Of a stretch of DNA of 64,000 nucleotides, positions 2,386-45,294 are shown in pieces. Position numbers and translations under genes: made by a program. Each line of letters begins with the position of its first letter. Positions within the stretch are counted from its first letter, which is position 1. The DNA is from Auanema rhodensis (taxonomy: Eukaryota; Animalia; Nematoda), in NCBI GenBank assembly GCA_964057225.1, contig OZ059896.1, positions 10,850,001-10,914,000 of the forward strand, read 5' to 3'. Below the pieces are notes generated by a model. That model had not been told where the DNA came from and did no database searches. It was given only the letters and a program-made list of their open reading frames with translations.

Positions 2386-4209
2386 GCACGGTACTGATGG
2401 CGCTAAGCTGGCATAATCAAAAGAGTCAGAAATATTAAAAAGTCGAAATGACTAGTCCCGCCACGATTATTCTTTTACCACGTTCTATTCGAGTTCGATC
2501 TACGCCTCTTCCCGTTTAAAAAGTGAGAGATAGCTGATTCTCGTATCTGAATTTTAAATTGTTTGATGTTTAGAAAATTAAAGAGGGTTTACAGTTAGTA
2601 AAGGGTATTAAAATTGACTATATGTATGTGACTCGATAGAGAGAATAGCAAGAGCACTTGAAAGAGACAAATAAATTATTTGAGAGAAGATCGAGAAACA
2701 GATGTAGAGATATGATTATACATATAGAAGAATAAAAAAATTTAAAATAAGAGATAGAAAACATCGAAGGTAATGGCATTCAAGTTCAGTCAATACTTCA
2801 ATTTAGATAGTCATATATCAATAATTATATTCAAAAATTACAAAAAAAAAACTTTTTTTTTAAATATTCGATTATAATATAAATAATTAAAAATAATAAT
2901 TTATATAAAAATCTTTATTTTTATATAGATTTTATTAAAAGAATTGATATATATATATATATCTACTAAATCTAAATAGAATAAATGAAGCCATTCGATT
3001 TCAAAACAAGATCATGTTACGATCCACTATTTTTTTCTGAAAAAGCTAATCCTTAGTAGTGTGGTAGAAAAGAAAAGCTAAAAATGGTAAACAACTTGAA
3101 TAGATTTCAAACTAAGCCAAATAATAATAAATAAAATTAAAAAATCAATTTTAAAGACAAATTTCATAGATTATATAAAATTTATTAATGAATTATATAT
3201 ATAAATAAATGAAAATAATATCTGAAAATTAGTTTTAAATTTAATAAAATAATAGAAATCAGATACAATAAATTAACAATTTTTGTAAAAATAAAAGAAA
3301 ATTTCAAATACAATTTATGATTTGTCTCACATTTTTTTCAAATTTCGAGAGAATAAAAAATTCGTAAATAGAAGAAAAATGGCTAAAGACGTTTATATTC
3401 AAGCAATACTGAATTTAGTTGGTTTTCCCAAATTGTAAACAAATCTCCCATTTCCCTTTCTTTATTTATTTTTTTTCTGCAGAAAGCTGTAAATCTTAAC
3501 TAGTTTATCTTTTATCTTTTTCTATTCAAAAATAGTTGAATGAATTGAACATTGATTATAAAAAAAAAGGGAAATTGCGAACTTACTGAAACAAAATGAA
3601 ATAAAAGTTGTTCAATTAAATTTTTTAAATTCTTTATTCCAATTAAGAAAAAATTGTAAAATAATAAATAAACAAAGTTTTAGTGAAGATATATAAAATA
3701 ATAATTTTATATTTATATTTTATTGGAAAAATAAAAGTAATAACATTAATATTTGAAAGTAATAATGAATAACATACAAATATATTGATAATATATGTAT
3801 ATTAATCAATGTTATATCAATAGTTTTACATAGTGTAAGAAGGAATTGCGGAAAAAAAAGTTTTAAAAATGTTTCAAGAACGAGAACATGAAGTAAGAAA
3901 GAATCAGAGATGACAATGATTATATTAAAAACTTTTGATCTCTAACATTTAATTTTCTTCCTTTTTAAAGATAATGCATTAAAGTTTCGTAAAAAAGCAG
4001 GATGTACTAACCATGAACAACCTTTCGAAACGGTCACACTTTTTGTTACAAGAATGATGGCGTACCTCGGTCACAGGCATCCATGTGGCCATATAAAAGG
4101 AATTTTGTATGTAACTATCTATCAACTCTTTCTTCTCTTTCTACATTTCCTTAAAATATTATATTTTAATATCATAAACTATATATAAGACTAAGTTTTG
4201 TCTTTCTAG

Positions 4210-5203
4210 ATGGGTTACAGTACCGTTGTCTCCGCCGCTTCCTTAGTCATCGTTTTCGGTGCCTTCATTGGCATTGGACGTATTGTCTATGACATCAACA
4301 GCATGTATGATGATGTAATGGATCGTATGCACGATTTCAAGGTATTTCAAAGTAAATCAATATTACTTTTCAACTTTTTGAATAATTTAGAATGTTGCTG
4401 ATGTAGCATGGAGAGAGGTTGTTATCAAGTCTCACCCATCTGACCGCGCTGGATTCAATGCCCTTATTGGTTAGATTTAGAGATAGTTTGATCTTTATAG
4501 TTGTTTTGTTTGTAGGAAGAAACAAGAGATCTAACAGCCAATGTAACTGCGGAGCTCAATCCAGAGGATGCCCAGCTGGACCACCAGGACCAGTTGGAGA
4601 AGCTGGACTTCCAGGAAAAGATGGACTTGATGGACTTCCAGGAGCTGACGGAATCTCTGGAAACCAAATCTTCTACGGAGATGAGGTAAGCATATTTTTG
4701 TTTATATCTCTTTTCATTATTTCTTAATTCAGAACAAGAAGGCTTGCATCGTTTGCCCAGCTGGACCACCAGGACCACCAGGAGAGCAAGGACCAGCTGG
4801 AGAGGCAGGAGAAGATGGACGTGCTGGACTCCATGGACCAGCCGGACAACCAGGACCAGACGGAGAAACTGGAGCTCCAGGAAACGACGGAAGACCAGGA
4901 CACCCAGGACGCCCAGGAGCCCCAGGAGAGAACGGACATCCAGGAGTTCAATACACTGAAGGAAAGCCAGGACACCCAGGACGTCCAGGACCACGCGGAC
5001 CTGCTGGACCTGCTGGAAACAACGGAAAGGACGGACAAGACGGACAGCCAGGACAGCAAGGACCAGCTGGAAAGGACGGAGAAAATGGTCTTCCCGGACC
5101 AGACGGACAACCTGCCACTCCAGGAACCGACGGAGAAGTTGGACCAGATGCTGGATACTGTCCATGCCCAGCTCGTACCGAAGCCATCCGCTTCATGGAC
5201 TAA
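4210..5203 (+). CDS. Cuticular collagen (col family)
   Basis: N-terminal hydrophobic Col_cuticle_N segment, RNKR cleavage site, [11 protein letters not shown], Gly-X-Y repeats, C-terminal YCPCPAR; 3 short introns; TAA 5201-5203. Confidence 0.95.
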
Positions 5204-6198: not shown

Positions 6199-6684
6199 TT
6201 AATAATTCTTAATTTTCCTTGTACCAAAAAAGAAATGTCCAATTGATAATCCAATACATAATGATGTGCATATCCAAAATGAGAAAGTCATAAAGCATAA
6301 CATGAGCATGTAACCCAAAATTATTTGAATAACATATAAGCATGATTCAAACAAATGATGAGTATCTAGTAAATAATCATGCCAACTGAAATAGTTTTTT
6401 ATTATTTTTAAATTCATTATTTCATTCAATAAATACTTTCTCATTGCATCTCCTTTGGTGTCAACATGCCAACGTATCCATCGTAATGCTTCAAGTACAA
6501 TAGCCATAGCAGCTACGACAAAACATGACCAAACCATATCTAGAATTATTTTTTATTTTAATATTATACATTTATAGGATTAAATCGTACTTCCTGGATC
6601 AGTTATCCACCATTGTTCAACCCAGATTACATCATTAACTTGTGTGTGATACCACATCCACATTTTTGGATGGCTTGGTTTCAT
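6199..6684 (-). CDS. CTR/SLC31 copper transporter, paralog C
   Basis: MWMWYH N-terminal motif, TM2 MLCFM (MxxxM), TM3 GLSIG (GxxxG). Confidence 0.88.
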
Positions 6685-7238
6685 GATTAATCTAATTATC
6701 AATAAAACTAATTATTAAGCAATAAATAAAAAATAAATAAAACAAATTGAAATCAATATATGATTGAGAAAAATTTGTAACAATTCAATTATAATAAATA
6801 TATTTGTTTAAATAAATATATATGAACAATCTATTTTGAATGGGAACAATTGCAAAAGGTGATGTCTGTGATCGAGTGATGGGAATAAAGATAAGAATTT
6901 GAAGTTTACTTGCTGATAAGTAAATTCTCAAGATAAGAAGAGTTTTTAGATAACATAATAATAATAATAATAATAATAGTAAGAGTAATTAAGATATTAC
7001 TAAGTGATCAGTGATTATTTGAATTTGTAAAGTAATGAGTCAATTCAATGTCTTCTTATAGTCTTTTATTGCATTTTTAGAATGCTTATTCAATCAAATG
7101 TTTCAAATTTTAATAGATTTTAATATTTATTTATAATTAGTTCAATATATAATCAGTATAATATTTATTATTATTATCATATATTATTCATATATTCAAT
7201 TATAAAAAATGTTTATTTTCATAATAAAATTAAATAGA

Positions 7239-7851
7239 TTATCCACAACAATCAGTCATTTCAACATTTTGTGCTATTGGCATCTTCGTTCCCGTTAAGT
7301 AATAGCCAAGTACATGTCCTTAAAAAAATAATTGAAGAATAATTTGTTGAACAAATACAACAAAGTACCTGCAATCATACTGGCAACAATTGGAACATTA
7401 TACGTCATTGAGATCATCATCAAAGAATAAGATCCATACATCTCAAAGAAATACAATATTGGAGATAGTAAATTATATGGTTTAGAAAGATATTTCAAAC
7501 TAAATCTGCAAAACATGTATATATGATTATATCGTATAATTTTTTTAATTTTGTATTACGGTAGTTGTGGTTTGGGTCTACTAAGCTCTGAAGGCATGCA
7601 ACATGAATTATCCATTTCGTCCTCATCATCTTCAACAAAATATTTCTTGAGAAGAATGGTATGAGCAAAGCGTAATAATTCAAAAGCTAATGCTATAGCT
7701 CCCACAGCGATACAAGTAAACACATAACCTTAATAAATACGTTTTTTTGTCTCAGCTTTCATATAGTTATACCAGTTACATTTGCTGGAAGCCATTCCCT
7801 AAATAGTACCGGCTCTCCGATACGGAAGTGGAAATACATTTTCATCATCAT
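7239..7851 (-). CDS. CTR/SLC31 copper transporter, paralog B
   Basis: MMMKMYFHFR..VLFREW N-terminus, YSLMMISMTYN (MxxxM), GHVLG, C-terminal DCCG*. Confidence 0.88.
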
Positions 7852-8023
7852 GATTAAATTCGATCTAAATTAGAGTCAGACAGAAATTAAACAGATAATT
7901 CTGAAAAATTCAACGATAAGCAAACGATTAAACATCTTAGATGAATCATGAACAACTTAAGTTTTTAAAACTTATTTTGATAATAAAAATTTTATAAATT
8001 ATGCATATAGTGTTAACTTAATG

Positions 8024-8960
8024 CTAAAATCTTGAGAGAACTTTAGAGCTTATTCGATACTCAGTTGTTGAGTTAAATCTTAAAGTATTTGAGGTTTCAT
8101 AATCATTATGTTCTTGAACAGCTTTTCGATTTCCAAACAGGTAATGACCCACTGATAACCCACAGACCACAGCAATGCAGAGCCAAATAGAGAAGGTCAT
8201 AAAGACAAGCATGACAAAATAAGAAGAAATTGTCTGGAAATAATACTTCTTAAGGAATTATTTCTTAATAGTTTACGATAAGATATTATTCTTTGTATTA
8301 TTGGTTCATGATTGTTTCATTGTTCAAGAAAGATATTCTCACATAATTTCTAGATAATTGCATTCTTGCAAATTCTTATCAGTTTTGAATGAAATGTAAT
8401 TTGAAAAAATATTTCCTTACTTGGATAGCAAACAAAAAAGTTTGTCCAACATGGTAAACATGGAAGATTTGCTTGAAATATCTGAAAGTATTCGTTTTTA
8501 ACATTCAATTTTCGATTATTTCCATACCCATAATCATAAAACTTAGATTTTTGATGAGCATGTACATCCATTCTCCATCTAAAATACTTAACAGCTTCCA
8601 AGAAAATACATAAAGCAGCAATAATGAAGCATGAATATACCATTTCTAAAGAAGTTATATAAAAATTCATTTATAAAAACTATTTATAATAATTATAAAT
8701 AATAATATAATATATAATTAATTGATTAATTATATAAAAGAAATCTTACGTCCAGAACTTGTAGTATTCCAAAATCCAAACAAAATGGTATTATTAGGAT
8801 TGGTATGGAACCACATATACATGAAATGATTATCCATCATCATATGATGACTCATATTTCCCATAGGCATAGGCATTCCAGAAGGCATAGGCATTCCAGA
8901 AGGCATAGGCATTGGCATTCCAGAAGGCATAGGCATTGGCTTTTCAGTAGACATCATCAT
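8024..8960 (-). CDS. CTR/SLC31 copper transporter, paralog A, with expanded Met-rich N-terminus
   Basis: (MPMPSG)n..HHMMM..MYMWFH..ILFGFW ectodomain, SYFVMLVFMTFS (MxxxM), GLSVG. Confidence 0.9.
8863..8940 (-). repeat. Coding tandem repeat (18-24 nt units) encoding MPMPSG
   Basis: Repeated ggcataggcatt(ggcatt)ccagaa units. Confidence 0.9.
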
Positions 8961-9139: not shown

Positions 9140-9722
9140 GAGATTTCAATTTTTAAATTTTTTGTAAAGTTTTTACTATTTATTATGAAAATAAACAATT
9201 GTTATAAGAGAACAAATGGAAATCAAACAGTAGGATGTCATTCAACTGACATTATCAGTCATATAAGTCAGAAAGTCAAAGCTTCGTTTTCTACTCTGTT
9301 GCTCTCATAATCATTCATACTCCAGTTCGGCCCTCATAATGATAACATTATAGTAGAGTAATCGTTCAATAAGGGCATTTATTGTCTTTTTCCATTCAAA
9401 ACATCTTAACAATTTGATTATACAATTATTACTGAATACTAAATATTATATAGTTATAAGTACCATTCTAAAAATATGAATTGATTCCAAATATATGCTT
9501 TTCTAATCAGTTATAATCAATACAAATACCTAATAATAATTTGTAGCTTTCTGGATGTTATACATAAATCATTTTTTTAATCAAAAAATAACTGGCAATA
9601 ATAATATGTATTTTGCCGTTCTAGCGCACCTTTTCGCCCATCCCCAATTTTCGCAGTTTTAAGCCGTTTTAAGGCTTTTTTTCATTAATTTTGTGTCCTA
9701 ACTCTTCGAAAATGTGTCATTT
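9140..9722 (+). repeat. Left arm of a 583-bp inverted repeat (partner 12702-13284)
   Basis: Position p pairs with 22424-p. No mismatch was seen in the stretches compared by eye. Pairing fails at 9139/13285 and 9723/12701. Confidence 0.95.
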
Positions 9723-9811
9723 TCAACAATTTTCAAAAATGAAAAAGAACCTGCCAAGTCTAACAAATATTTATCTTGAAAAACTTGTAAAATTATTAAA
9801 GATAAGAAACT

Positions 9812-11339
9812 TCAGAGGATCTTTATGAGAGACACTTTGCCCCCACAAGGAATTAAGGAAAGAGAAGTTGGAATTGTAACTTTAGACTCGATAGGATGAT
9901 TCGGAGCAATAATATTTATTCATAGGAAGAAAATAATACATTTACTGAAAAAATGCTGCTTGGCTCCATTTTTATTCTTTAATAAAACGTCCACTAAATT
10001 TTCTCCATATTACTCCAAATCTTTGCGCATATGGAAGTTTTGAAGGATTAAAGTAACTTTTCCGGTTTTTGACTCCTATAAATATATAAATTATAAACTA
10101 TTATCTTTTGTTTTAATAATAATCTCGTTAATTTCGCTCGCAAGTTGGTCAAAATTAAGATTGAACAACTTTTCCTTGATGTACATTGCCATCTCATGCT
10201 CAACTTTTAATTTCTTCTCAAAAATTTCGAGAAATCTAAAAATAATAATTCAATAAGAATAGTTCAAACAAATGACTTTTTATTTTACCTGAAACACGCC
10301 AATAGAAAGGTCATTCTGACCCCATCCCTTCACATGAAACCTAAAAAACAAAAACAAATTGCATAAATCAGTAATTATATACAGTCCTGTGCGAAATAGT
10401 GGGGACACTCACTAGAAACCCTTATACCTTCTCAGACAAACTACAAAAATTCAGAAAAAATATATTTTGAGTGTTAAAAAATGATAATGAATTCAGAAAA
10501 AATCTTCAAAATTTTAAAAATCATGTTTAAAAGTATTTTCTGAGGTCTTGAATCTATGCCATAGGAAAAACTTGGTTATTGATCGAGCTCCGTGCTCAGA
10601 ATGATTTTAAAATATTTTTAATGAATTAACTTGTTTCTAATCTCAAATTTTGTTATATTAAGAAGGATTATTCAAAATAGTCAAAAAACACTAAATTTCC
10701 TTATAAATTTAGAAATCTCATTGAAATCAGTTTTCATTATATTAACATATATTTTGACTGAATATAAACTAAACGCAAAATTTTTGAAATAAAAAAAAAA
10801 TTTTTTTTGTAGTTTGAAGGGGAATTCTGGGCCTCTAACATAGGGGTGTCCCAACTATTTCGCACAGGACTGTATATCTTATTTGTATGCTATTCTCCAA
10901 CCGGAGTCCAGTTCTTTAGCCGTTTCAGGTTCGACTTTCTTGCGTATGAGCACAACTTTGAGAACCTGTTGTAATCCCAAGGATTCGTCAACGTTTCAGG
11001 AACAATCTTGACATTCTGTTGCCACTTCAAGTTTTTGAATATAATTCATCATGGCAAGCTTACAACCCTAGAAATATTTTAATAAAGATTACAAGTCTAA
11101 GCAAAAAGTGCTATACACTTTAGATTCATTAAATTACATTAAAAAATACATACTTGAAATGATTTCTCACACGTCTGGGCGGTATCATGTGCATCCAAGT
11201 ATCCAACTGCTCGCTCTTTTAGCAAATCGACCGTATAGATGAGCTTCGTATCGGAAATCTAGAATTATAGCCAGTTATTATGTAAATTACATGATTAATC
11301 TATTAAAAGCCTTTTTTTAATATAAATATGGCTTACCAT
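9812..11339 (-). pseudogene. Spliced cargo-like pseudogene inside the Maverick remnant (unknown family)
   Basis: tttcagaATG|gtaag first exon. Exons read ISDTKLIYTVDLLKERAVGYLDAHDTAQTCEKSFQ, LKWQQNVKIVPETLTNPWDYNRFSKLCSY, FLEIFEKKLKVEHEMAMYIKEKLFNLNFDQLASEINE and ESKTGKVTLILQNFHMRKDLE*YGENL. Frameshifts, a premature stop and damaged splice sites must be assumed. Confidence 0.55.
10382..10872. mobile_element. Tc1/mariner-type non-autonomous element (MITE), 491 bp
   Basis: 27-bp TIRs CAGTCCTGTGCGAAATAGT(G/T)GGGACAC with 1 mismatch, flanked by TA at 10380-10381 and 10873-10874; no coding capacity. Confidence 0.93.
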
Positions 11340-11460
11340 TCTGAAATGATAGATAGCTGGTGACAAGCGGCAATTGATGAACAACCGAAACATCATCCGT
11401 TTGAGGAAAAAAAACACTGAAATATGATAAATTAAATTTTTTTTGATAAATGATAAATTT

Positions 11461-11659
11461 GTAAAGTAATCATATAAAAATGTAATTTCTTATTTAATTC
11501 TAGTATGGGTTTGAATACTTCTATACGGTGATATTCTACGTTTTCTAAATTGCAGCGCTCTTCTAAATTCTTGAATTAGTGTTCTTTTCTATTCTTCAAG
11601 AATGATTGAACAATTTTATTCCTTTTCTAGGGATCATAGATTTCGATTGTGGAAGGCAT
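11461..11659 (-). pseudogene. Truncated, stop-interrupted Polinton-type ORF
   Basis: MPSTIEIYDP*KRNKIVQSFLKNRKEH*FKNLEER...EVFKPILE resembles the IxDPxKRxxIVxxFLKxR...FKPI N-terminus I recall from Polinton-associated proteins. Intronless, with two in-frame stops. Confidence 0.5.
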
Positions 11660-11705
11660 TTTTTTGAAAAAGTAATTTATTTATAAAAAAGTATTGTATT
11701 TATAA

Positions 11706-11861
11706 ATGGAAGAAATTACTGAAGCTTCGAAAGCTAAGGCAGTAAAGTTCCAAAATCTTTCTTTTGGAGCATCTGCAAGACATTCACCTAGTGAAGGATT
11801 CGAAGAAGATTCAAAGAAAATGAAAAGAGATGAAGTTCGTAGAAAAATTGCGATGATTTGA
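11706..11861 (+). CDS. Small intronless ORF (~51 aa) within the Maverick remnant
   Basis: TATTTATAAATG start context, then MEEITEASKAKAVKFQNLSFGASARHSPSEGFEEDSKKMKRDEVRRKIAMI*. Confidence 0.35.
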   Translation: MEEITEASKAKAVKFQNLSFGASARHSPSEGFEEDSKKMKRDEVRRKIAMI

Positions 11862-11974
11862 AGTGAATTGAGAACTCCACTTTTTTTATATAAAAGGAAG
11901 TTTTGATTCCTTCTAGAATTTGAAAAAGTAATATCTTTTTAGTTTCAAAAGAATTCATCTGACAATGTCGAGAG

Positions 11975-12701
11975 ATGAGCTGCTCCGTGAATTTAGAAAA
12001 AATAATAAAAAAGAAAAAATTACTAATGACTGATGCTCAAATGAAAAAGATGAAGGTGGATGAAATGAAGCAATTTATTAATAATCATTCTCAAGAAGTT
12101 AATCTTTTACCACCTCCAGATGAGATTTTTCTTATGGATCATTTGATTTTTACTGATCTAGAAGCTAAAGAGAATGCTAATTCAAGGATAACAAATTATA
12201 GAAGCAAGAACAGCAAAGATTTCCTAGAAAATCCTTTTGAAATGATCGAAGAGAAAGGTATTGAATTTTACATGGATCTTGTAAAAAAGAGATTGACTTC
12301 TTTTCTCAAGAAGAAGCAAAATACTGTTGTCAACGACATTTACAAAGTTACTAATGTTCGAATAATGCTTTACTTAGAATGTGAAACAAAGAAACCTGAT
12401 TCTACTAGTCCATCCAAGTTTCATGTTAATACAATATCTCAACTTCTACAATCAGGTGAAAGTAGGGAAGAATTTTATCGAGTAGCATGTCAAACTTCAA
12501 TGAATGATGTAGAAAATAGAGAACATCATGCTTCAGGATTAGTGATAACCAGATTTTTAAAGTAAACCATGTTTCAAACTAGAACTGATGCAATGATTGG
12601 AGCTTTTTTTTCAAATCCTAAGTTTGTTATTAGTAAAAGGTCTGTTTTAAATATCCAAAAAAAGATAACATGTGTTTCAAGTGGACCATTCTAGCTCATC
12701 T
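11975..12701 (+). pseudogene. N-terminal fragment of a Polinton/Maverick protein-primed DNA polymerase B
   Basis: 196-aa intronless ORF ending ENREHHASGLVITRFLK. It continues across frameshifts as PKFVISKRSVLNIQK/DNMCFKWTILAHLN, matching the GSGW...KK.I.NI.N.D..CF.W.ILA.L motif of Polinton pPolB N-termini. Truncated at the inverted repeat. Confidence 0.75.
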
Positions 12702-13284
12702 AAATGACACATTTTCGAAGAGTTAGGACACAAAATTAATGAAAAAAAGCCTTAAAACGGCTTAAAACTGCGAAAATTGGGGATGGGCGAAAAGGTGCGC
12801 TAGAACGGCAAAATACATATTATTATTGCCAGTTATTTTTTGATTAAAAAAATGATTTATGTATAACATCCAGAAAGCTACAAATTATTATTAGGTATTT
12901 GTATTGATTATAACTGATTAGAAAAGCATATATTTGGAATCAATTCATATTTTTAGAATGGTACTTATAACTATATAATATTTAGTATTCAGTAATAATT
13001 GTATAATCAAATTGTTAAGATGTTTTGAATGGAAAAAGACAATAAATGCCCTTATTGAACGATTACTCTACTATAATGTTATCATTATGAGGGCCGAACT
13101 GGAGTATGAATGATTATGAGAGCAACAGAGTAGAAAACGAAGCTTTGACTTTCTGACTTATATGACTGATAATGTCAGTTGAATGACATCCTACTGTTTG
13201 ATTTCCATTTGTTCTCTTATAACAATTGTTTATTTTCATAATAAATAGTAAAAACTTTACAAAAAATTTAAAAATTGAAATCTC
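12702..13284 (-). repeat. Right arm of the 583-bp inverted repeat (inverted copy of 9140-9722)
   Basis: Made of a copy of the element's left end (12702-12824), an inverted TSD attgcc (12825-12830) and inverted host flank (12831-13284). Confidence 0.95.
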
Positions 13285-13690
13285 ACAGCAAAATACATAT
13301 TATGGGCAATCATGTACAAACTGAAAATCTACAATACTTATAGTATTTTATAGGTTTAGCAAGATTGATTAAATTGACCTTTGTTCAGGACGAAAAAAAT
13401 TATAAAATATTTATTTTTTTCTCAAATTTTTTCATGAAAAATTGCTTTTTGTTTGTAAAATAATTGTTTTAGTATCCAGTTTGAACTTTGATATGTCTAC
13501 GCATATTTTTTAAAAACGATGCTGTGTTATAATCAGTCTCGTTCTTATCAAACTTGAATACTGCTCAGACCTGTTAAGTTAGAGTTAGCACGTATGAGTA
13601 TCTATATATACGAGAATCTTTTTTTGTATTTCATATTTTTTTCAGGCATATTGATAAGTTTTTAAAAATTTAATTATTTTAAGGCTGCTT

Positions 13691-15879: not shown

Positions 15880-16507
15880 TTTTTTTTTTTTCATGATTTT
15901 TTTGTTACACTTTTGTTTTGAATTGTATTAATCAATGATTATAAAACATTCGACGGTTAGCTTTGAATATTGTAGTCTCATATTTCATGAATCACTTAAT
16001 CATATAAAAAACTGACCATTACTTAATAATCATATTTAAAAAAAAAAAACCAAGCATTTCCAACCGAAATTTTAAAAGACGATGTAAGTCTCGTTTCATT
16101 ACGCTCTGCATTTACATAATATGATATTACTTAGTAGAAATAAATAATAAGGTCACAACAGTGTGGAAAAAACGACCTAAAGATTATTGTGCTTCATATT
16201 TAATTAGTTCAAAGGTGACAAGAGAGATCTGTCTATTTATATCTACTTTAGCTGATCATATAAACTAAATAAGGTCTAACTAAGTTAGAATCGAAGAAGC
16301 CAAAAATATTCACTACAATATAAAATAGAAAGAAATCAGCCTTTTCCTCCCAAAACGATTAAAAACCGGGGGAATGAAAACAAATCACTTAATGATCATT
16401 CGTTGCGATTCGAGAGGGAAATAGATAAATCAGATAAAACATAGAGACATAAGTCAAATTAGAACATGGTATTTTTAAAAAGCCAAAATAAAAAAATATA
16501 TATGTGT

Positions 16508-24099
<7,592 letters not shown>

Positions 24100-29113: not shown

Positions 29114-30324
29114 ATGGAAGAAGCCGGTCGTAGGTTCCCCTCTAGATATGGAAAGCGTGAACATGAATTGGTAAGGCCTGATTCTTCTTGAAACTATAAT
29201 GTAAGTGTTTTAAGCCTATTCTCCACCTGGATTCCACTGGAATGTTTTATACTGCTCTGATACCTCCTTTGCTTGGAGCTATAGTAGCTGTTACCACAGC
29301 TTTGACTTATCATCAATCGTACATAACAAATTATAATTGGATGTGTGGAGTAAGATCAAAATGAATCAACAATTCCCAACAGTATGTTTTATGATTGTAG
29401 AGAGCAACGTTACCCAGCTTTTCAAGAATAATCAATTTGGAGTTTGAAGGAATTGTGTTTCAATTTTTTATCTATTTTCATGCCCCATTGCGTCTGCTTG
29501 AGTTAACAGTAGGATGTGAGTTGTTTGGTTTGATCTAAATATATCTCTGGACCAAAAAAAAGCTTTATTAATTACTCAGTTAAGTTACTGGAACTTTTAG
29601 TTAATCGATATCGTCAATTGATGTCTGTCACTTGTACATGGCCACGGCTTTACAATTTAGCCAGATGGGCTTACACAATATTTGGAATTTTGGACATTGT
29701 GCTTATGATAGGTTTATCGGCTGTCGGGGAAAAGGAACAAGGAAGTCAATTTTTTTATGAAAAAGATCAAAATGTAAGTTCCAATTGCAGTTGTTCACAT
29801 CACCTTCTTTTACATTTACGGAATGTTCGCTCTTGCTTTCTTTATTTCGAATACTGTATGTCACAGCCAGTCGCTATACTATCTTAATCCATACGTAAGA
29901 ACTAAATAATATCTCTTTTATGATCTGGATGTTAAGGGTCGTTTATCATATCGATTGAAGTGTCTTTTCTTATCCTTGTATGCTATATCCATTCCAATGA
30001 TAGTGACATTTTATCTTATTTATTGGAAAGCATGTGTCACACTAGGTTGTATATAGTTAACACTGATTTGAAATTCATTGAACAACATTACAGGATATGA
30101 ACTCTTTGCACTAACAGAATATGCTGATGCTTTTATAAGCACCGCTTATCACTGCTGTGCATTTTTGGATATTCGTCATAAGGTAACGTTAACAATGCTG
30201 AATAATCTGTAAACGACTTGATTAGGTTATCTTCAAACTGACTTATTGTCCTCGTCACATAAAAGAAGAACTACGAGAGCTCAAGCAAGCGAAGACAAAA
30301 GACATTGACAGCCAAAGTTCTTAA
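29114..30324 (+). CDS. PGAP2/FRAG1 (DRAM/Sfk1) family membrane protein
   Basis: ITNYNWMCG.ATLPSFSRII, multiple TM segments, WKAC...YELFALTEY..AYH..AFLDI. Confidence 0.8.
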
Positions 30325-31139
30325 TTATCATAACTTAACTGCTAATTAATTGATCCATAAAGTTCACATTTATGCTCCCGGAAATAATCACACTGATTGC
30401 AAAATACGAAAAACATAATGATTATTTTGGTACAGATTTGGAAATTATGCTGTAATAAATAATAAAATAATACCAACAAACCATCTAAACTTCAATTAAT
30501 AAAAAATTAGCTTGATATTTCTGATAATGTAAAAAAAAAACACATAAAAGTAAACTATAATGGAAAAGGAACTATGTCTTGATTAAAAAATTAGGAAACC
30601 CTGTCAGATTTACCAAAAAGCGCACTAACCAGTAAGCAGAGGTAGAACCAGTTTAATAACATCTCTTAATTCTGTTGCAATGCGAATGGTAGCGATTTCA
30701 AAACTTTATGAACGACAAGATACATTCAGCAAGAAAACTGCTCATTTCTTACTACCTATTGATTTCCACTATTGGAAACTATCCTAATAAAGCTTTCATG
30801 ATTTACCATCGTTCTTTTATTTTATATTTATCGAATAGTTTCTTTAGCAGGGCAGACAGACTTAGTAGGAATTACATCAACGTCTCCTCAGACTTGGCTG
30901 CTTACCATTGGTCAGATCGTGAACAAATATACAATTGCAAGCTGTCAAATGGCTTCTTTCTATTTATTCGATGACCAAAAATATCGCTGTTTATAACTAA
31001 TCAAAATTTTTAATTTTGAAAAAGTGTTACAAAAAGGTCTAAACGTAGACTGCAACTGAACAAAAAGATACTAGAAAGCACAGCAAGAGTGGATCAGTTC
31101 ATACAATTTGGAATGGAAGTGCTTCATGTCGGTCATTGT

Positions 31140-31326
31140 TCATCATTACAACATGATTCTATGAAAATACTTGTATATAAAAATTTAAAAATATTCCGGT
31201 TGTGCAAAACTCTGTACGGCTAATGCTCATCATTACAACATGATTCATCATTGAATGCTCATCATTGCAACATGATTCTATGAAAATTTAAAGATATTCT
31301 AGTTGTGCAAAACTCAGTACGGCTAA
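31140..31326. repeat. Local imperfect tandem duplication (2 long + 1 partial copy)
   Basis: tcatcatt(a/g)caacatgattc occurs 3 times; ttgtgcaaaactc(t/a)gtacggctaa occurs twice. Confidence 0.85.
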
Positions 31327-31469
31327 CTGTAATTGGACCGATTAACTTCGTTTCCACAGACACCTAACGCATCTACAAATACTGTAGAATTAATGTACGC
31401 AGTGCGTACATTACATGTTTAACATATAAATATAATTATAAAATTTATGCTTAAAGGTTGAAAGAAAAT

Positions 31470-32021
31470 ATGACACCAGCTTTTCCTTTCAATTCTCAGT
31501 TATTCAAACTCAAACAGTTACTTAGACCGTCTAGTTCTACAGTTTTAGCAAATTATATTTTAAACTCAAATGCGCAAGGTTTGCGACCTTTTAGATTAAG
31601 CTATTTTATTTTCAAGTTTCAGTAAGACATAATGCTTGGCGTGCTAGTATTGGAAAAATAGCTAGATCCAAATATGTTTTATGTTATCCTATTAAGGTTG
31701 TAAGACCAGATGGATCAACTCTTGAAATGCGGGCTTCTGAGCCTCAACAGGTAAAATATATGTTATACATTCTCATAATTTTCGCTCAAGATTGTCCAAC
31801 TTGCCGTTGATCTCAAGGCTCTTACTGAAGATGAAAGGAGACAACGATTAGCCGCCAGAAAGCCTAAGGCAAAAAAGATTGAAGAAGTATTTATTTTAAA
31901 ATTTTCTCAACAAATTTTTTATTATTAGGAGATTATTGATGATAACTTCGACGAAGCTGATTATCTCAACTATTTTTCCGGTGACTCACGAACAACATTA
32001 AAGAAGAAGAATGCGCAATAG
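31470..32021 (+). CDS. mrpl-55: Mitochondrial ribosomal protein mL55/bL31m
   Basis: NAWRASIGKIARSKY..YPIKVVRPDGST..EP..LAVDLKALTEDERRQRL..DDNFD..YL; start codon approximate. Confidence 0.88.
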
Positions 32022-32173
32022 TTTATTTTATAATTTTTGTTTTCTTAGGTTTAAAATAGTTCTAATTAAAACTTTTTGTTTTCTGTTATCACGTGCATAC
32101 CTCATATCTTATCCATCGTAGTGGAATTATTACTTTAACCGTATTTTTTGAATTTATTAATTTCTGTTTTTAG

Positions 32174-33149
<976 letters not shown>

Positions 33150-33429
33150 TCCTGGCATTTATCTTACACGTTTTAGATTATATTATTTATTGTTTTTTTG
33201 ACTGTTTGATCATATCATTCCTGTGTTGCTTTATTTTGAGGGTTATAAAGTTTCATATTAGTGAAATTAATTTTCTCATTTTTTAAACGAAGCAAAATGC
33301 TTCTAGGTAACAAATCAAGATAACAGTATTCTCATTAAAATTTTGATAAGCAATTGATTTCTACCTGATTGTGTGGTAGCTCAGTGAGCTTCAATAGCTT
33401 TCACTTTGACAGTTTTTAATTCATATACT

Positions 33430-34335
33430 ATGAAGAAATCTGTTATTCTGTTTATTTTTATTGCATATGTTAGTGGTGGTTTCGCAGCTCCTGCTGAATC
33501 GAAACTTACTATTTCTTGCGCTTCTTGCCAATTAGTTGCTCATCTAGTTACACCAAGAAGTTTGAATGAATCAGGACCAGGTAACTTACTTTTTCACCAC
33601 GTCTCTACTTATAATGTTAGATCACTTAATTTCAAAGTATGCTATTGATCGACATTGCTCTAAGATTGATAGTTGTTCGACCGTTTATACCCAATGCGAG
33701 GTACTCAATTAACATTCATGGAGACGCGTAAATGATAATAATTAAGATTGTAACAAAATTATCTCAATCTCATATTGAGCTACCTGGAAATAATACGAAT
33801 ATACATAAGGCAGCTTTAGAAAAATCATTAAAGAAATTCTTTTTAGAAGCATCCCAAGCATGTATACACGGTAAACACAGGTGATAAAAGCTCTTCCATA
33901 ATTAAATCTTTAGAACCTAATAAAGCAGTTATAACTAGTAATGATCAGTCCATTAAATGTAGCATGTGTATTTTAATATATAACTTCTTCAGCTATTTCA
34001 ATACAGGTCTTAAAATGCTTATTATGTTATTTAATAGGTTTAATTTTCAGCTATTCTTGAAAATCCCATGCTGAAATACATCCCAGCTGCCGTAAATATT
34101 ACTTGCTTCATGATTAAAAGTCTAACTGGCGTAGAGCAACCTGCCATGGTATTTTCTGATGTAGAAATCAAGCCTGTTTAATTTTTTTTAGTGCGGGCCC
34201 CTTACCCAAGGCAATGCAATTCAAGACATTCTAAAAGGAATCCAAGATTCATTAGGAGGATTCTATGATTTGATTGCAGTTCAAGGAATGGGATGTTACC
34301 CATATCAACAATTATTCAATGATTGTGGGTACTAA
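33430..34335 (+). CDS. Secreted Cys-rich protein with saposin-B-like CxxC repeats
   Basis: Signal peptide MKKSVILFIFIAYVSGGFA, ISCASCQLV, IKCSMCILI, further spaced Cys; ends NDCGY* at 34333-34335. Confidence 0.65.
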
Positions 34336-34489
34336 GAATAAATGAATCGAATTAAATTTTAGCATTTTATTATAACAGATGACAATCAAATAAACAATAA
34401 GTCTTAACAATGTAAAGTAACATAACAAAACGAGAGATAACAACAAGAAATGAACACAACAGAATGTAACTAAGAGACCATTTAAGTAA

Positions 34490-35462
34490 TTAGTCATTGA
34501 ATTTAATTTTCTTATTCTGCTGACCACCACCAAAGTCTCCACTTCTTTTGAAACCTGAAAGAAATACTTCGTATGTTAAAAAAACAATCATATACGTACC
34601 ACCACGGTCGCCTCCACGGAATCCGCCGCCTCTACCTCCACGGTCTCCACCACGGAATCCACCTCCACGGTCTCCACCACGGAATCCACCGCCTCGTCCG
34701 CCACGGTCACCAAATCCTCCACCACGTCCTCCTCCGAAACCTCCACCACGGCCTCCACCGAATCCTCCACCACCACGTCCGCCACGACCACCTCCGAAGC
34801 CACCACCGCGACCTCCTCTGTAAACAATTTTGACTAATCTCAACATATTTATTTCTCACCTATCTCCTCCTCTTCCTCTACCGCGGCCTCTGCTATTCTG
34901 GGCACCAGGAAGGAATCTACAAATAACATATGAATGTATGAATAATCAAAATCTAACGATATACCTATCTACAGGAAGAAGCTTGCCAGGGTCAATATAA
35001 AGTTTCTGTTCTTCTTTGAAAGACTGTGCTTTAACTCCATTTTGAAGAGTTACAGTGAATCCCTTTAATATTATGTATTTAAAATTAATCGGTGATAATA
35101 CTTACATTTTCCATGGGTCCTCCGAAAATCTCATCAATTTTTCCTATTTGCTCCTTATTTTCAAAATAAACAGGGGCATTGAAATATGGAATTTTTCCAG
35201 TTGTGTTAGTGCATACGATGTCCTGTTCGCAACAATGGGTAAAATGTCCTACTTCAATAACCTGGAATATTTATTTATATTTTTTCGTTTTCGAAGCTTC
35301 ACTACTTCTTCTGGTGGCCCAGCATCATATCCTCCACCTCTTCCTCCTCCTCTTCCGCCTCCACGACCTGAATACATATTTTCTAAAAGTTTAGGATAGA
35401 CTGATTATACCTCCACGATCACCGCCACGTCCGCGTCCACCACCACGACCTCTAAAAGACAT
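34490..35462 (-). CDS. garr-1: H/ACA snoRNP subunit GAR1
   Basis: RGG repeats at both ends; core [46 protein letters not shown]. Confidence 0.95.
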
Positions 35463-36889
35463 CTGAAAAAAGTTCATATTATTTTTAAAATTAATTAAAA
35501 AAGAGGAATAGAGAAAATATTCAAAATTTACATAATAGATATAAAAAAACATAATTTACTTAATGAAATATATATTTACTAGAAATATCTGTTCTTTGGT
35601 TAGAAAATACCGTAGCCGTTTGGTGATATATTAGATATCATCAAAATTAAGTTTAAAATAATAACCTCAAAACTTTCCTTATAATATTTTAATAAACAAG
35701 TTACCCAAACATAATAAGCATTTAAATGGAAACAAATATTTTTAATGAAAAGCATCAGAATATTTTGCATTTTCTTTTTCTGGCCCAATAGCTTTGGGAC
35801 CATATTTGCAACTCCACCCTTTATGTATGCTGTATTTTGTGAATGAATTCCATAGCATTTTACTTTTAAAATATACTATGGTTTTTATACTTAAATTTTA
35901 AATAATAAACCTCTTAAGTAATTCAGCTTATTAGAAAATTTTCACTATAATCTAATTATCATGTTTTTCTTTTACATTTATATGCTTAGTTTCTAAAATT
36001 ATGTGATATGTATAAATTTCATTTTCTTTTTTAACATGATGTTTTTTGAAGTTTTTACAATTTTCTTATCTTATTTGCTTGTTTCCATGTCTGAATTAAG
36101 TATTTTACTCTATTTTACCAGCGATACGGTTTTTCTTCAGATAGAATGTTCGTACTTAAAACATCCTTTATCCTAAGTTGCTTGAGGTGCGAACTTTCCT
36201 AATGACATGCAATATTATATCTGAGCTAGAGCAAGCAATTAATTTGGCTCATTTTCCGCAATACTAGCATGTTCCAATTCACGCCAGATTGATTAGAGGG
36301 TTGCTCACTTTAAGCTCGCGCTTTTCGTATATGTATGCGTTGTGCAGGTTTGAATAACTTTTTTTATCATTGTATTTTTTCAATTTTAAATGTTTCAATG
36401 ATAATCCCAAGTAAGGGACTTTCGCCATTGCACTTCATAGTCCCATTCTTCCTATCAGAAATATTTGAACTTACACTTTGGTCATGTGAAGTGATATGAA
36501 TTTGTACTTTTCAATTTTTTCCAAAAAATGTACTCGATTTTTCAGCCTTTTCTTGCTTATTCAACGATTTTTAATATGTATATCTTGCATTAACATGATC
36601 TCTAGCTTGTGATTGGGTGGAAATAGCTAATAATCTGCTCTTATCACTTGCCGCAGCTCATCCCCTCGAATAGGATTTGCTTAGCACCAGGATTATCATC
36701 CATCTAATTTCACTGATTGATTTTCTTCTTGATGACATGCTTCTTCCTTATCCCGTTTTACACCATTAGTTCTACTTTTTTATTAATATTTCAGTTATAT
36801 AGTTCATCAGATTGATATCCACAAGACGGTGATTGAATTGTTATGCTTTTTCGATTGCTAGATCGATAATCATAGATTATTGATTGAAA

Positions 36890-39800
36890 ATGCGGTCAAC
36901 CCGCTCTTCGACACAACCTTCAGAATCTTCTCAGAATGTAAAGAAGCATAGGTGTTATTCAAATGCGGTGATTCCAATTTATTGTATGTTTTAGCGGTTC
37001 TTCGGGTTCTGCTGACCAAAATGATTCTATTGTGCCAAGAGTAAGCCCGACAACATCCAATTATGAGAGATCAGAAACATTTCTCCTTCGTTTCTGTACT
37101 TCTACGTTTCGTCAACTTGTAAGTCAAAACAGGCGACGATATCAAATTGATGGATTCGATCTCGATTTATCATGTAAGTTTGTTGTTCTGAACTTTCAGT
37201 CTTAAGGCAGTTATATGTGGAAATTTTAGACATAACTGATCGCATAATAGCTATGGGTTATCCTGCTGACACGGCCGAAGCTGTGTATAGAAATAGAATG
37301 GATGATATACAACACTTCCTTGAAAAATATCATCAAGATCACTATAAAGTTTTCAATTTGTTAGAATAATAACTGTTCTAGAATTAATGCTCATACATTT
37401 CAGGAGAGGTTTATATGCATACGATCCTAATAAATTTCATAATCGTGTGAAGTTCTTCGAGATGACTGATCATCACCCACCGAAATTGGAAATTATGGCC
37501 CCATTTTGCCAAGAAGTAATATTAAAACATTTAATATATTATACGTGTTCTCTATATTTGAAGGTTCATGAATACTTAGAAGCTCACCCTATGAACGTGG
37601 TAGCTGTACATTGCAAAGCCGGAAAAGTAAAATAAAATTAGTTTTATAAGTGATGCGTTTTCATTTAGGGTCGTACGGGTGTAATGATATGCGCTTATTT
37701 AAGTTATATCAATTTTTATCCTTCACCGAGACAAAATATGGACTATTATTCCATTGTTCGTACCAAAAATAACAAGGTAATCTTAATCTCCAAGATTAGT
37801 TCTATTGGTTGTTTTACAGGGTGTAACCATTCCATCACAGAGACGCTACGTGTACTATTTTTCTCATTTAAGAAAACATTCCTTGAATTATATGTCTCAT
37901 AGGATTGAACTAATAGGAGTATACTTTGAAAGACTACCAAATGTTAGCTGTGAGCTAAACACGTTTAATTTTGAAATGTCTCTCTTATATCTACAGCAAT
38001 ACTGGTCTCTCGTAGTGGATTTGAGCTTTCTGTTGCCAATGGAGATGTCAATGTCTTTCTAGGAGAACCTATGTGGCTAACAAATGAGCAATGGTTTTTT
38101 TCAATTTTTGAATATAATATTCAAGCTACGTTTAGGAGCGAAGAAGATGAAGCCTGGGCTGGTAATGTTGTTCCTCATGGTGATGATCATTATGATCCAT
38201 TTAATCCTGTTCCAGGAAATGATGTGCTTTCTCGGTTTGTTTTAAGTTTAGAATTGATAGTTCATAATTGAATTAAGGCGTGTTTGGGGCTGGACAGTAC
38301 CCCCTGACAAGCGTGTCTTCTTAGAAGACGACGTTAGAGTGAACTTATTCACAAAGGGTAGATATTTCAATATTAATAGCTCGGCTGCGAAGGTCTGTGA
38401 TATTTTAATTTGAGCTTTCGCTATTATAAATAACGTTTAGTTGGGTCATGTATGGTTTAATACAATGTTCACATGTCCTGGGTTTTGCGGAAGCGTTTAT
38501 CGCCATGGTGACGAAGCTCATCCTTATCCTGATGGGGCTACTACAATATCTGAACGAAAAACTCAAGGTCATTATCCAAAAACTGGTAGTGCTAGTCTTC
38601 CGAATTCTCCACCTGGTAGGTTGAATATCCTATAGCTCTGCTTTGGTTTTGTTTAAACTTCCTAAGTTATTGAAATGGGGTGTGTGCAGGCACTCCAATT
38701 TTGCGCTGTGTTGGCGGAAGTATTTCTGGACGAAATGCTGCTAGAACACCTTCGTTTGAGGCTCGCAAGTCTACTGGTAGATCTACTCGATTCCAAATCA
38801 ACTCCGTAGTCAGACGGCGTGGGTAGAATTCATCTGCATGTGCCTCACAAATTCTTTCTACAAGCACTAGTGCATGTAGAACATGCACTTTAGATTTCTC
38901 TTCTTATTGAATCATTTGCGCGTTGTGGTGTATGCGAACGCTCACACTTTTCTAATATTTCGTCAACACTTCAATTTTTCTGGAAACGCTAAATTGTATA
39001 ATATTTCTTTTCAGTTGCTGATACGGCATCTCGAAATAGTGAACCTCATATTGATCAAAATGCAGAAGAACGTAGTTCTTCGCGTAGGATTGAACGGAAA
39101 AGTGGAAAAGATAAAGATCGACCATCGTCTAACTGGAGTGAAGACATGGAGGTACCAGCTTATCATCTTCCGGGATTTCTTTCAAATCTCATTTATAGCT
39201 TATGCTTCCACCCGGATTAAATAGACATTGCCCCAAAGAGAGTTTGGAAAAGATATATAGTGGGGAAAAAAACCCGTAATAGTTTACCGGCGTTAGTTGA
39301 AATAATACTTATATTTTTAGTCCTCGTGTGCATATTGAAAAAATGTTGAGAGATGCACATTCCAGTGACTTGATTCAGGATTCATATAATCATCGACGAT
39401 TAAGTGTACCTCAAGGTGCTTTTTATTTAATATTATGTAATCCATTTTTAATTATCGTAAAGCTATGTTCTTTACTATATCTTATGTCGTTATGGAAACA
39501 TTATTTTATAGAGGGAACGCCCGTTGCTGCTTCTCCGGAAGGTCGTCCTTACGCTTCTGGTCCTAACCTATTACGTAGAGCTCCCGAGGAGCATGTACAA
39601 GTTTATTCAGTATTAGAGATTGATCGAGCGTGTAAAAACAAAAATATCGAACCGGGTTTTCAGGTATATTTTTAGTATATTAGTGTAATTTTCTCATTAA
39701 TTCTAGATGATTATTGTAACTCGATGTCTTCGACCAGAAGATCAAATGTTGGCTGAAAGCTTTATTAGAGTAACAAAACAAAAGCAAGCAGAAAAGGAAA

Positions 39801-40476
39801 AATATAAGCAGGAAAAGGTTCTACTACGGCTTTATGTATTGTATCATAAATTTATCAGGCAAACTCTCGTTTGAAGAAACTTCAAGGAGTTGGTTCGGGA
39901 GCTTCATTAGGAGGAGATAACGAAATCTTTGGAGCGGCAAATAGCAGCAATGATTCAAATGCTGAATTCCCATTGGATCCCCGCATAAGTGATCCCTTCC
40001 TTAGCAGGTATGTTGAATGTCAACTAATAAATTATGCATCGAAGTATGTAGAATTTGTTGTATTGTTGTATCTTAGAGCATTCTTATTTTTTATGAATTT
40101 AGGTGTCCACTGCTTTCCGAAACATCAGATAAAACTGACTTTGCCACATCTCCCAGTTTGGACAAACCTATAAGTGTTTGCGGTTCACATACTCCCGCTT
40201 ATAATGTTAGCTCATTCATATGTACTACTAATGACAAATTGATATTTTTAAGAGTCCCGACTGGAAAACAAGTTGCTCTGATTTTTCGGTTGGAGAATTG
40301 AATGAACTTGATATTGAGGTGCGAAGTTATCACCCAGATGCCGGAAAATACCAATCTGGAAGTAGCCGTAGCAGTAGTAGCGTAAGTTGTTTTTCAAAAA
40401 TGTACTTTTTCAAATTTTATACAAAGATTTTTGTTGTATTCAGAATGAAGGCTGCGCTGTTCCGGCGGACGAATGA
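36890..40476 (+). CDS. daf-18: PTEN phosphatase DAF-18
   Basis: [59 protein letters not shown], and a C2 domain with HVWFNTMF. C-terminal exons less certain. Confidence 0.95.
38690..38776 (+). CDS. daf-18: Probable 87-nt frame-preserving cassette exon of daf-18
   Basis: gtgcag|GCACTCC...TCTACTG|gtagat; phase 1 to phase 1, matching the flanking exons; open frame [29 protein letters not shown]. Confidence 0.6.
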
Positions 40477-42089: not shown

Positions 42090-42400
42090 ATGAGAAGCAC
42101 AATCCTTATTTTCATAATTTTCAATGTTGTAACCTGCATACTTCATAATGAAGGGCAATTTCCCCGTCAAATAAGATCGTCATATATTGGAGAGTGAGTA
42201 ATTTATAATAAAACATTATTAATTTTAATTTTAGATTCACGTTTGGTAGTTTAAATAGATTACCGAGATATGCGTACCGAAGACTTCAATCAGCAGGAGG
42301 TTAGCATTATACAGTTTACTTTAATTCGTATTTAGACATTACAGCCATGTTCCCCAAACGACAACCAAGTTCCAATTGGCTGGATAAGAAAGTAATATAA
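42090..42400 (+). CDS. 77-aa secreted prepropeptide, candidate neuropeptide precursor (3 exons)
   Basis: Exons 42090-42193, 42235-42299 and 42336-42400 with GT-AG introns give MRSTILIFIIFNVVTCILHNEGQFPRQIRSSYIGEFTFGSLNRLPRYAYRRLQSAGDITAMFPKRQPSSNWLDKKVI*. It has a signal peptide and RQIR/RR/KR/KK sites. Confidence 0.75.
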
Positions 42401-42589
42401 GTTATAAAAAAAAGGATAAAATGTTCATTTGTTTTCAAACGACGTTAAAAATTGTATTATATTTCAACTTGAACAAATAAAACGCTAAAAACAGAAAATT
42501 ACTTAGATGCATGTTTACATATGATTTTTTACAAACCTCATATATGGCAAGAACTTGATGAACTGATGAGAAAGTGATATTGTATTCAA

Positions 42590-43507: not shown

Positions 43508-43796
43508 CTTCTCAAAAATTATCTTATAATATAAAACTTGTTATCAAATTATGCGAGGCGGCAAGTATAACCTGTAGCGAGCACATACAGTATATTATTT
43601 AAAATTTAAAACGTGATTTGACGCTCTAAGACTATTATGAAATAAACCTATGTTATGCTTCCTTGAAATAGTACAAGTTTATATGGTTAGGTATTTTATT
43701 GGATTATGCTGAGTTACATATGTCACATGAAAGAAAAAAAAAATTTGTACAAAACGTGAGTATTATGTTAATATTCTTAAAACTGTAGTCGGGATC

Positions 43797-44994: not shown

Positions 44995-45294
44995 TAATTT
45001 TTTTTATAGAAAACATCTACTAGACAACACAATATACATTTTGGTCTTAAAATTTTTGTACGACTTTTGTGTATTCAGGGGGTTTCATGCCATCTTTTGC
45101 TTTTTTAAAGCGTATGCAACTGTTCCAACGTGTCTATGTTGTTTCTCCCACTTTGTTAACATTTTGGAAATATTAGAGTGTTAATTCCCTTATTTCCTTA
45201 TTATAAGATATTATTATATGTTAAAACGTATTGATTATAAGATAAATAATCTTAATATCTTTTGCTTTTTCTTCCTATATCTATTCCGTTCAGA

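What the first reader, a model, noticed from the sequence alone, without database searches (positions are those of the whole stretch)
9600..13304. Maverick/Polinton remnant with 6-bp TSD and (C/A)ATAATAT termini
A 6-bp TSD plus a pPolB N-terminal motif (SVLNIQ.DNMCFKWTILAHL) and intronless ORFs in an intron-dense genome fit the Maverick/Polinton class. The termini read AATAATATG / CATAATATG rather than the usual AG-start repeats and recall the ATAATA core of adenoviral protein-primed origins. This may mark a distinct family. Integrase, capsids, ATPase and protease are absent, so the element is non-autonomous.
Basis: partly seen in the sequence, partly recalled or inferred. Interest (0 to 1): 0.7.

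Follow-up and report, generated by a model that had tools for sequence, protein, structure and literature searches.

The report
Dead Polinton remnant with copied flank
This is a broken leftover of a virus-like jumping element (a Polinton) of a kind already known from roundworms; it holds a spliced passenger gene of unknown identity and a perfect flipped copy of its own left end plus neighbouring host DNA, likely made by a recent DNA-repair slip.

Summary
The element is a dead Polinton/Maverick in an Auanema-like nematode. 11965-12701 is the broken 5' part of a pPolB whose full-length relatives carry the HNH/endonuclease VII domain of the published nematode pPolB2 class. The finding omits a perfect 583-bp inverted repeat (9140-9722 / 12702-13284). 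It copies 123 bp of the left TIR plus 460 bp of host DNA at twice single-copy depth, so it is a likely recent repair-made duplication, not a long TIR. The true TIR is about 142 bp. The left end reads (AAT)2, a variant of the known (AGT)2 motif; an adenovirus link is unsupported. The pPolB piece is 82% identical to a C. japonica protein, itself 99% identical to a Panagrellus one, which fits reported horizontal spread. Verdict: new member of a known kind, with an unidentified cargo.

The parts
9140..9599 (.). Host intergenic DNA ('H'), left flank of the element and donor of the inverted duplication
   Evidence: Identical to the reverse complement of 12825-13284. X3 contig 22 has depth 405.6, against 150-222 for the six other listed X3 contigs with no differences, so two copies and not a dispersed repeat.
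9594..9599 (+). Left target-site duplication GGCAAT
9600..9741 (+). Left terminal inverted repeat, about 142 bp, starting (AAT)2
   Evidence: High summed depth (2460-3800 in X3). X8 contig 24 starts matching at 9600. Loose ends behind 9741 in X3 (6), X8 (7) and X12 (3).
9739..9896 (+). 5' fragment of the adenain-like protease (PRO), frameshifted, then a stop
   Evidence: tblastn with the L001 protease, E 9e-6 on the element, 0 of 150 shuffles reach the score. The L001 ORF hits Peptidase_C5 at 8e-5 and adenain structures.
9946..11416 (-). Spliced passenger pseudogene, single copy, identity unknown (about 6 exons by eye: 11416-11337, 11258-11154, 11067-~10885, 10340-10289, 10235-~10128, 10075-~9946; in-frame stops)
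   Evidence: Three clean GT-AG introns (GC 17-22%, exons 31-46%). Single-copy depth, about 220 in X3; both junctions to Polinton DNA are bridged by X3 contigs 16 and 18. No database match.
10382..10872 (.). Tc1/mariner-type MITE (CAGT ends, 27-bp TIR with 1 mismatch, TA on both sides) inside the passenger gene
   Evidence: Summed depth 30,000-47,500 in X3. The superfamily label rests on recalled TA/CAGT hallmarks.
11480..11653 (-). 5' fragment of a conserved Polinton ORF (likely the puORF/PZ-type gene), two stops
   Evidence: Matches the 299-aa ORF of the Polinton L003, 31% over 58 aa, E 9e-5, 0 of 150 shuffles. The name PZ/puORF is inferred.
11965..12701 (+). 5' part of the protein-primed DNA polymerase (pPolB2-type), two frameshifts and one stop, cut before the HNH, exonuclease and polymerase domains
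   Evidence: phmmer hits P0001-P0009. P0002, P0005 and P0006 carry Endonuclease_7. 82% identical to C. japonica P0010 over 192 aa. Start at 11965.
12702..13284 (-). Inverted, 100% identical copy of 9140-9722 (123 bp of left TIR plus 460 bp of host flank)
   Evidence: Twice single-copy depth in X3.
13285..13304 (-). Last 20 bp of the original right terminus, 18 of 20 identical to the left tip
   Evidence: X3 contig 23 (13256-13611, no differences, depth 216) covers it, with 29 letters on the duplicated side.
13305..13310 (+). Right target-site duplication GGCAAT

Best explanation
The stretch 9600-13304 is a dead copy of a multi-copy nematode Polinton, likely of the pPolB2 class, that likely integrated with a 6-bp duplication, lost most of its genes, holds a single-copy spliced passenger gene, and likely gained its perfect 583-bp inverted copy of the left end and host flank through a recent repair error. 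Shown: the ends, the TSD, three Polinton gene fragments, multi-copy depth on the Polinton parts, single-copy depth on the passenger and double depth on the flank copy. Inferred order of events: (1) integrase-mediated insertion at GGCAAT between a copper-transporter-like gene and a ugt gene; (2) replacement of the interval from mid-PRO to mid-puORF by the spliced gene, in this copy only; (3) decay and a MITE insertion; (4) a break or stalled fork in the right end, whose free 3' end paired with the left TIR about 3 kb away, copied through the tip and 460 bp into host DNA, and was end-joined to the last 20 bp of the old right end (aborted SDSA plus end joining, or a double template switch). The locus has no predicted protein function now.
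For: pPolB relatives with Endonuclease_7. HNH is the pPolB2-specific domain in terrestrial nematodes (PMC10748475 section 5). Protease and conserved-ORF fragments beat 150 of 150 shuffles. The terminus at 9600 and TIR end near 9741 come from other copies. The arms have 0 differences in 583 bp (95% bound 0.5%), while the old right tip differs from the left tip at 2 of 20 bases and the genes carry stops and frameshifts, so the duplication is younger than the decay. Both new junctions fall inside TIR sequence (123 bp and 20 bp from the tips), and the tip ends up duplicated, as end-joining of an over-extended repair strand predicts. In C. elegans such events give duplications of about 100 bp to 10 kb, mostly in repair mutants (PMC8654963 passages).
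Against: No allele without the duplication and no empty site was seen. The double depth comes from one run (X3), which may be the source of the assembly; X8 has holes over H. No listed contig bridges 12701|12702, and 13284|13285 has only 29 letters on one side (table cut). No microhomology is visible at either junction on the sides that survive. pPolB2 membership rests on the N-terminal region alone (26-36% identity to the long relatives); the HNH domain itself is deleted here, and no tree was built. TSDs of other copies could not be read.
Confidence: 0.72

Rival explanations
1. The inverted duplication was made by the element's own integrase in an alternative (hybrid-end) transposition, as with maize Ac composite insertions, not by host repair.
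For: Both junctions lie at or in the termini. Inverted duplications of transposon ends plus flank are known from Ac killer and Mu killer (search listing and abstract starts only). Related copies at 97-98% identity exist in another run, so a trans-acting integrase is possible.
Against: The original TSD pair is intact and no new TSD bounds the copied segment. The junctions are 20 and 123 bp inside the TIRs, not at the tips where an integrase cuts.
Confidence: 0.1
2. The element defines a separate Polinton family with adenovirus-type ATAATA replication origins.
For: (AAT)2 is not among the three vertebrate end motifs listed in PMC8097293. The pPolB N-terminus is only 32-37% identical between the C. 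japonica relative and the C. briggsae proteins. PRO lies next to the left TIR.
Against: (AAT)2 has the same form as (AGT)2. The two tips disagree at base 1, so CAT- may be decay. pPolB2 Polintons are already listed in A. rhodensis and C. japonica. No test tied the ends to adenovirus.
Confidence: 0.08
3. The 583-bp repeat is an assembly artefact (fold-back chimera).
For: The arms are 100% identical; only one laid run covers the whole arm; the inner junction is not bridged in the listed contigs.
Against: X3 contig 22 over H has depth 405.6, against 150-222 for single-copy contigs. Contig 23 joins the end of the copy to the 20-bp tip, TSD and flank with no differences.
Confidence: 0.06
4. The real element is 9140-13284 (or -13304), a non-autonomous transposon with TIRs of about 600 bp, of which H is part.
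For: Perfect 583-bp inverted repeat; Polinton TIRs of 100-1500 bp are normal (PMC10748475).
Against: H is at double depth only, while 9600-9741 is at more than ten times single-copy depth. Another copy begins at 9600 after unrelated DNA. The left and right outer flanks of the 583-bp arms share no duplication.
Confidence: 0.04

Closest known systems
Nematode pPolB2-class Polintons (Jeong et al., PMC10748475; e.g. Plnt_Arho_1 of Auanema rhodensis, Plnt_Cjap_1 of C. japonica; C. briggsae CBG21154 and CBG26256 as likely pPolB2 proteins)
   Same: pPolB N-terminal region, adenain-like protease, a conserved Polinton ORF, TIR within the 100-1500 bp range, 6-bp TSD, host genus.
   Different: Dead 3.7-kb remnant. 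Only 26-32% identity to the C. briggsae proteins over the N-terminus, but 82% to a C. japonica fragment. I could not compare it with Plnt_Arho_1 or Plnt_Cjap_1 DNA (coordinates only in the supplement).
Cargo-bearing nematode Mavericks (Widen et al., bioRxiv 10.1101/2022.07.12.499685; wasp proteases and krma kinases)
   Same: An intron-containing passenger gene inside a Maverick, and very high identity of Maverick genes between distant genera (Panagrellus and Caenorhabditis are named there).
   Different: [quoted passage not shown] Here it replaces core genes, cuts PRO and the conserved ORF, and is in one copy only. Membership in wasp or krma is not shown; a ubiquitin-like start is a by-eye, recalled resemblance.
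Vertebrate Maverick end motifs (AGT)2, (AG)3, (AC)3A (PMC8097293)
   Same: A short tandem repeat at the tip, with a 6-bp TSD.
   Different: The unit here is AAT at the left tip and CAT-AAT at the right tip.
Mu killer / Ac killer inverted-duplication alleles of maize
   Same: An inverted duplication of a transposon end with flanking DNA.
   Different: The arms are 3 kb apart, only 123 bp of the arm is element DNA, and no transcript or small RNA was examined.

Membership tests
Polinton/Maverick | Protein-primed DNA polymerase B gene | tested here: met
   5' fragment only; it aligns to full-length pPolBs, E down to 3e-21 among the long hits.
Polinton/Maverick | Adenain-like protease gene | tested here: met
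   5' fragment 9739-9896 against the L001 Peptidase_C5 ORF, 0 of 150 shuffles.
Polinton/Maverick | Terminal inverted repeats of 100-1500 bp | tested here: met
   About 142 bp, from loose ends of other copies in three runs. In this copy the right TIR survives as 20 bp.
Polinton/Maverick | 5-8 bp (usually 6 bp) target-site duplication | tested here: met
   GGCAAT, chance about 7e-4; this copy only.
Polinton/Maverick | Integrase, packaging ATPase, major and minor capsid genes | tested here: not met
   L002-L004 ORFs, including L003's integrase, ATPase and capsid, found nothing in 9600-12701 at E 0.05. Read as deleted; whether other copies have them was not testable (no genome held).
Polinton/Maverick | Short tandem repeat at the tips, (AGT)2, (AG)3 or (AC)3A in vertebrates | tested here: inconclusive
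   The left tip is (AAT)2 and the right tip CAT-AAT: same form, different letters. No nematode end motif was found in print.
Nematode pPolB2 class | HNH (endonuclease VII-like) domain in the polymerase | tested here: inconclusive
   Present in 3 of the 9 phmmer hits, namely three of the four longer than 700 aa. This copy is cut before the domain.
Nematode pPolB2 class | Placement in the pPolB2 clade of a polymerase tree | not tested
   The catalytic core is missing from the window and no pPolB1 set was held.
wasp/krma Maverick cargo | N-terminal ubiquitin-like domain followed by a serine protease or kinase domain | tested here: inconclusive
   Exon pieces gave no Pfam, PDB or homologue hit and Atlas scores under 0.9. 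The pieces are short, and the preprint's sequence sets are closed.
Adenovirus-type origin | Core origin bound by the polymerase-terminal protein complex | not testable with these tools
   Only a 6-letter AT-rich resemblance; the adenovirus motif is recalled.

The most novel reading that the evidence does not exclude
A horizontally spreading pPolB2 sub-lineage with (AAT)2 ends and PRO next to the TIR is shared by Auanema, C. japonica and Panagrellus. It carried into Auanema a ubiquitin-like-fronted passenger gene with no close relative in the host, a third class of nematode Maverick cargo beside wasp and krma. The recent inverted duplication also puts a copy of the neighbouring gene's upstream DNA in front of the ugt gene, or makes a hairpin that silences the family.
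Probability: 0.12. Interest if true: 0.6.

Novelty: new member of a known kind. Interest (0 to 1): 0.3.

Why it matters
It adds Auanema to a likely Caenorhabditis-Panagrellus transfer network of one pPolB2 lineage, gives a nematode end motif that I did not find in the searched literature, and offers an unidentified spliced cargo to check against wasp and krma. It also shows how a perfect long inverted repeat can mimic a TIR and mislead TIR-based annotation. None of this changes what Polintons are known to do.

Tried and rejected
No whole genome is held, so copies, their TSDs and an empty site could not be read. Pfam found nothing for the pPolB piece. The word-indexed homologue search found none among 921 candidates, the phage collection none, and the Atlas only 0.77; only the full HMMER scan worked. 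Terminal DNA patterns had 0 matches in viral and metagenome contigs. Protein scans of those collections with the close relatives gave no locus. Passenger gene: no match in Pfam, PDB, homologue search or Atlas. Rfam: none. The protease piece alone gave no useful PDB hit. An L002 protease control was reached by 99 of 150 shuffles and the L003 protease by 1 of 150. The idea that H is a GATA-rich enhancer restored to ugt is not supported: 2 TGATAA sites against 0.84 expected, P=0.20. Holes over H in X8, X10 and X12 prove nothing. X10 (depth 2-5) showed no empty site. Earlier findings of the scan: none in four look-ups. The original 2006 Polinton paper was not held under the id tried.
Full report
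Observation. The TSD and ends are as described: GGCAAT at 9594-9599 and 13305-13310, and tips 18 of 20 identical. A six-base match has a chance of about 7e-4 at a fixed site with local composition. The repeat search showed more: a 100% identical 583-bp inverted repeat, 9140-9722 and 12702-13284, and a small inverted pair at 10377-10408 / 10846-10877. The layout is host segment H (9140-9599), 123 bp of element end, interior to 12701, the inverted copy of end plus H, a 20-bp old right tip, and the TSD.

Host. A LAG-1 exon from the window is 97% identical to a protein of Auanema sp. JU1783, 67% or less to the other 26 of 27 hits, and 56% to C. japonica. The element lies between a minus-strand gene with a Met-rich start (Ctr-like by eye; the neighbour at 6202-6501 hits Pfam Ctr) and a ugt gene (last exon hits UDPGT).

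Polymerase. The read-through of 11963-12661 found 9 proteins at E<=0.001 among 1.84 billion. One (P0008) is a repetitive integrase-like protein matching a short stretch and was set aside. Three of the four hits longer than 700 aa carry Endonuclease_7; two are C. briggsae CBG21154 and CBG26256. Jeong et al. describe an HNH domain as specific to terrestrial nematode pPolB2 (PMC10748475 section 5), and their Supplementary Table 1 lists 26 pPolB2 Polintons, including an intact one in A. rhodensis and a pseudogenised one in C. japonica. The window's piece has two frameshifts and a stop and ends before the HNH domain, so the class is inferred from relatives. The closest proteins are C. japonica P0010 (82% over 192 aa) and P. 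redivivus P0001 (79% over 90 aa), which are 98.9% identical to each other over 90 aa. Host LAG-1 is 57% identical to C. japonica over all tblastn pieces, a figure lowered by read-through introns. This fits the transfer between genera reported by Widen et al. (section 11), but contamination of the public assemblies was not excluded and no tree was built.

Other Polinton genes. A scan with full-length relatives gave five IMG/VR loci and one GTDB locus. L003 has a TIR, integrase, A32-type ATPase, double jelly-roll capsid, pPolB with Endonuclease_7 and a weak protease hit. The L001 protease (Peptidase_C5 8e-5; adenain chains in PDB) matches 9825-9893, and L003's 299-aa ORF matches 11653-11480 on the minus strand; 0 of 150 shuffles reached either score. 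Integrase, ATPase and capsid ORFs found nothing in the interior. So the protease is broken, not absent.

Passenger. Between about 9946 and 11416 lies a minus-strand spliced pseudogene: three clean GT-AG introns, GC-richer exons and in-frame stops. A 491-bp TA-flanked MITE interrupts it. No search identified it. By eye its start resembles a ubiquitin-like fold, as in wasp and krma cargo (sections 12-13); this is recalled resemblance only. The preprint's sequence supplements are closed and bear on this point.

Public runs. Thirteen runs from 4 studies hold part of the stretch, 9 of them half or more; 4 of the 13 were laid. In X3, contigs with no differences have depth 150-222 over the passenger, pPolB pieces and right flank, and 405.6 over H. 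Summed depth is 2460-3800 on the ends, 770-2170 over 11504-12735 and 30,000-47,500 on the MITE; these are rough, not copy numbers. X8 contig 24 matches from exactly 9600 after 1119 unrelated bases. Loose ends behind 9741 in three runs put the TIR at about 142 bp. X3 contigs 16 and 18 bridge the two passenger junctions, and three X12 contigs go on into other DNA before 11481, so the passenger belongs to this copy. Against: X3 may be the assembly's source, X8 has holes over H, the junction 12701|12702 is not among the listed pieces (1230 not shown), and 13284|13285 has 29 letters on its short side.

Mechanism. The arms have no differences (95% bound 0.5%), while the old right tip has 2 of 20 and the genes are decayed, so the duplication came last. 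Both new junctions lie in TIR sequence and the tip is present twice. I infer that a free end in the right TIR used the left TIR as template, overran by 460 bp and was end-joined to the old tip. End joining of failed SDSA gives duplications of similar size in C. elegans repair mutants (PMC8654963 passages), although those are tandem. No microhomology is visible on the surviving sides. Integrase-driven alternative transposition, an artefact and a long-TIR element are less likely. A regulatory effect on ugt is unsupported.

Termini. The left tip is (AAT)2 and the right CAT-AAT. Vertebrate Mavericks end in (AGT)2, (AG)3 or (AC)3A (PMC8097293 section 7), so non-AG ends are already known and this one has the same form. 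Searches gave no nematode end motif; 'aataat' occurred in 0 of the 6 papers listed. The adenovirus comparison and slide-back priming are recalled, not tested.

Papers seen: Widen preprint, passages and sections 11-13; Jeong, passages, section 5 and supplement rows; PMC8097293, passages and section 7; PMC8654963, passages; Mu and Ac killer, listing and abstract starts only.

Verdict: a real, dead Polinton remnant of a known class, with an unidentified cargo and a recent flank duplication. Interest 0.3.

Noticed in passing
proteins P0001 and P0010: Panagrellus redivivus and Caenorhabditis japonica pPolB N-terminal fragments are 98.9% identical over 90 aa: recent transfer between distant nematodes, or contamination of one assembly.
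   Followed up: partly
window 11881-12530, run X12: A run with a different organism label, in which the MITE has low depth, holds pPolB contigs 97-98% identical to this dead copy, while some contigs in X3 and X8 differ by 12-15%. This may mean several subfamilies or transfer between close species.
   Followed up: no
window 10382-10872: A very abundant Tc1/mariner-type MITE (summed depth well over 100 times single copy in X3).
   Followed up: partly
L001 (IMG/VR, 4320 bp): A 'viral' contig that looks like a nematode-type pPolB2 Polinton piece, with polymerase and protease facing each other.
   Followed up: partly
L006 (JARLJO010000081.1): A Polinton-type pPolB contig inside a Gammaproteobacteria MAG, probably binned there by mistake.
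   Followed up: no
L003 1-16243; L005 1-9821: Polintons with long TIRs (about 745 bp, cut by the locus edge, and about 500 bp) related to the query alignment; L005's visible ends do not begin with AG.
   Followed up: partly
window 6200-8960 (minus): Apparently several copper-transporter (Ctr) genes in tandem; the one nearest the element has an MPMPSG-repeat N-terminus. Only 6202-6501 was confirmed by Pfam.
   Followed up: partly
window 7189-7228 and 9179-9218: A 40-bp, 85% inverted match between H and DNA upstream in the Ctr cluster, possibly a shared promoter remnant of duplicated genes.
   Followed up: no
window 4685-5203, 16500-22300, 34490-34855: Ordinary host genes: a cuticle collagen, lag-1/CSL, and a GAR-rich (fibrillarin-like, by eye) N-terminus.
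   Followed up: partly
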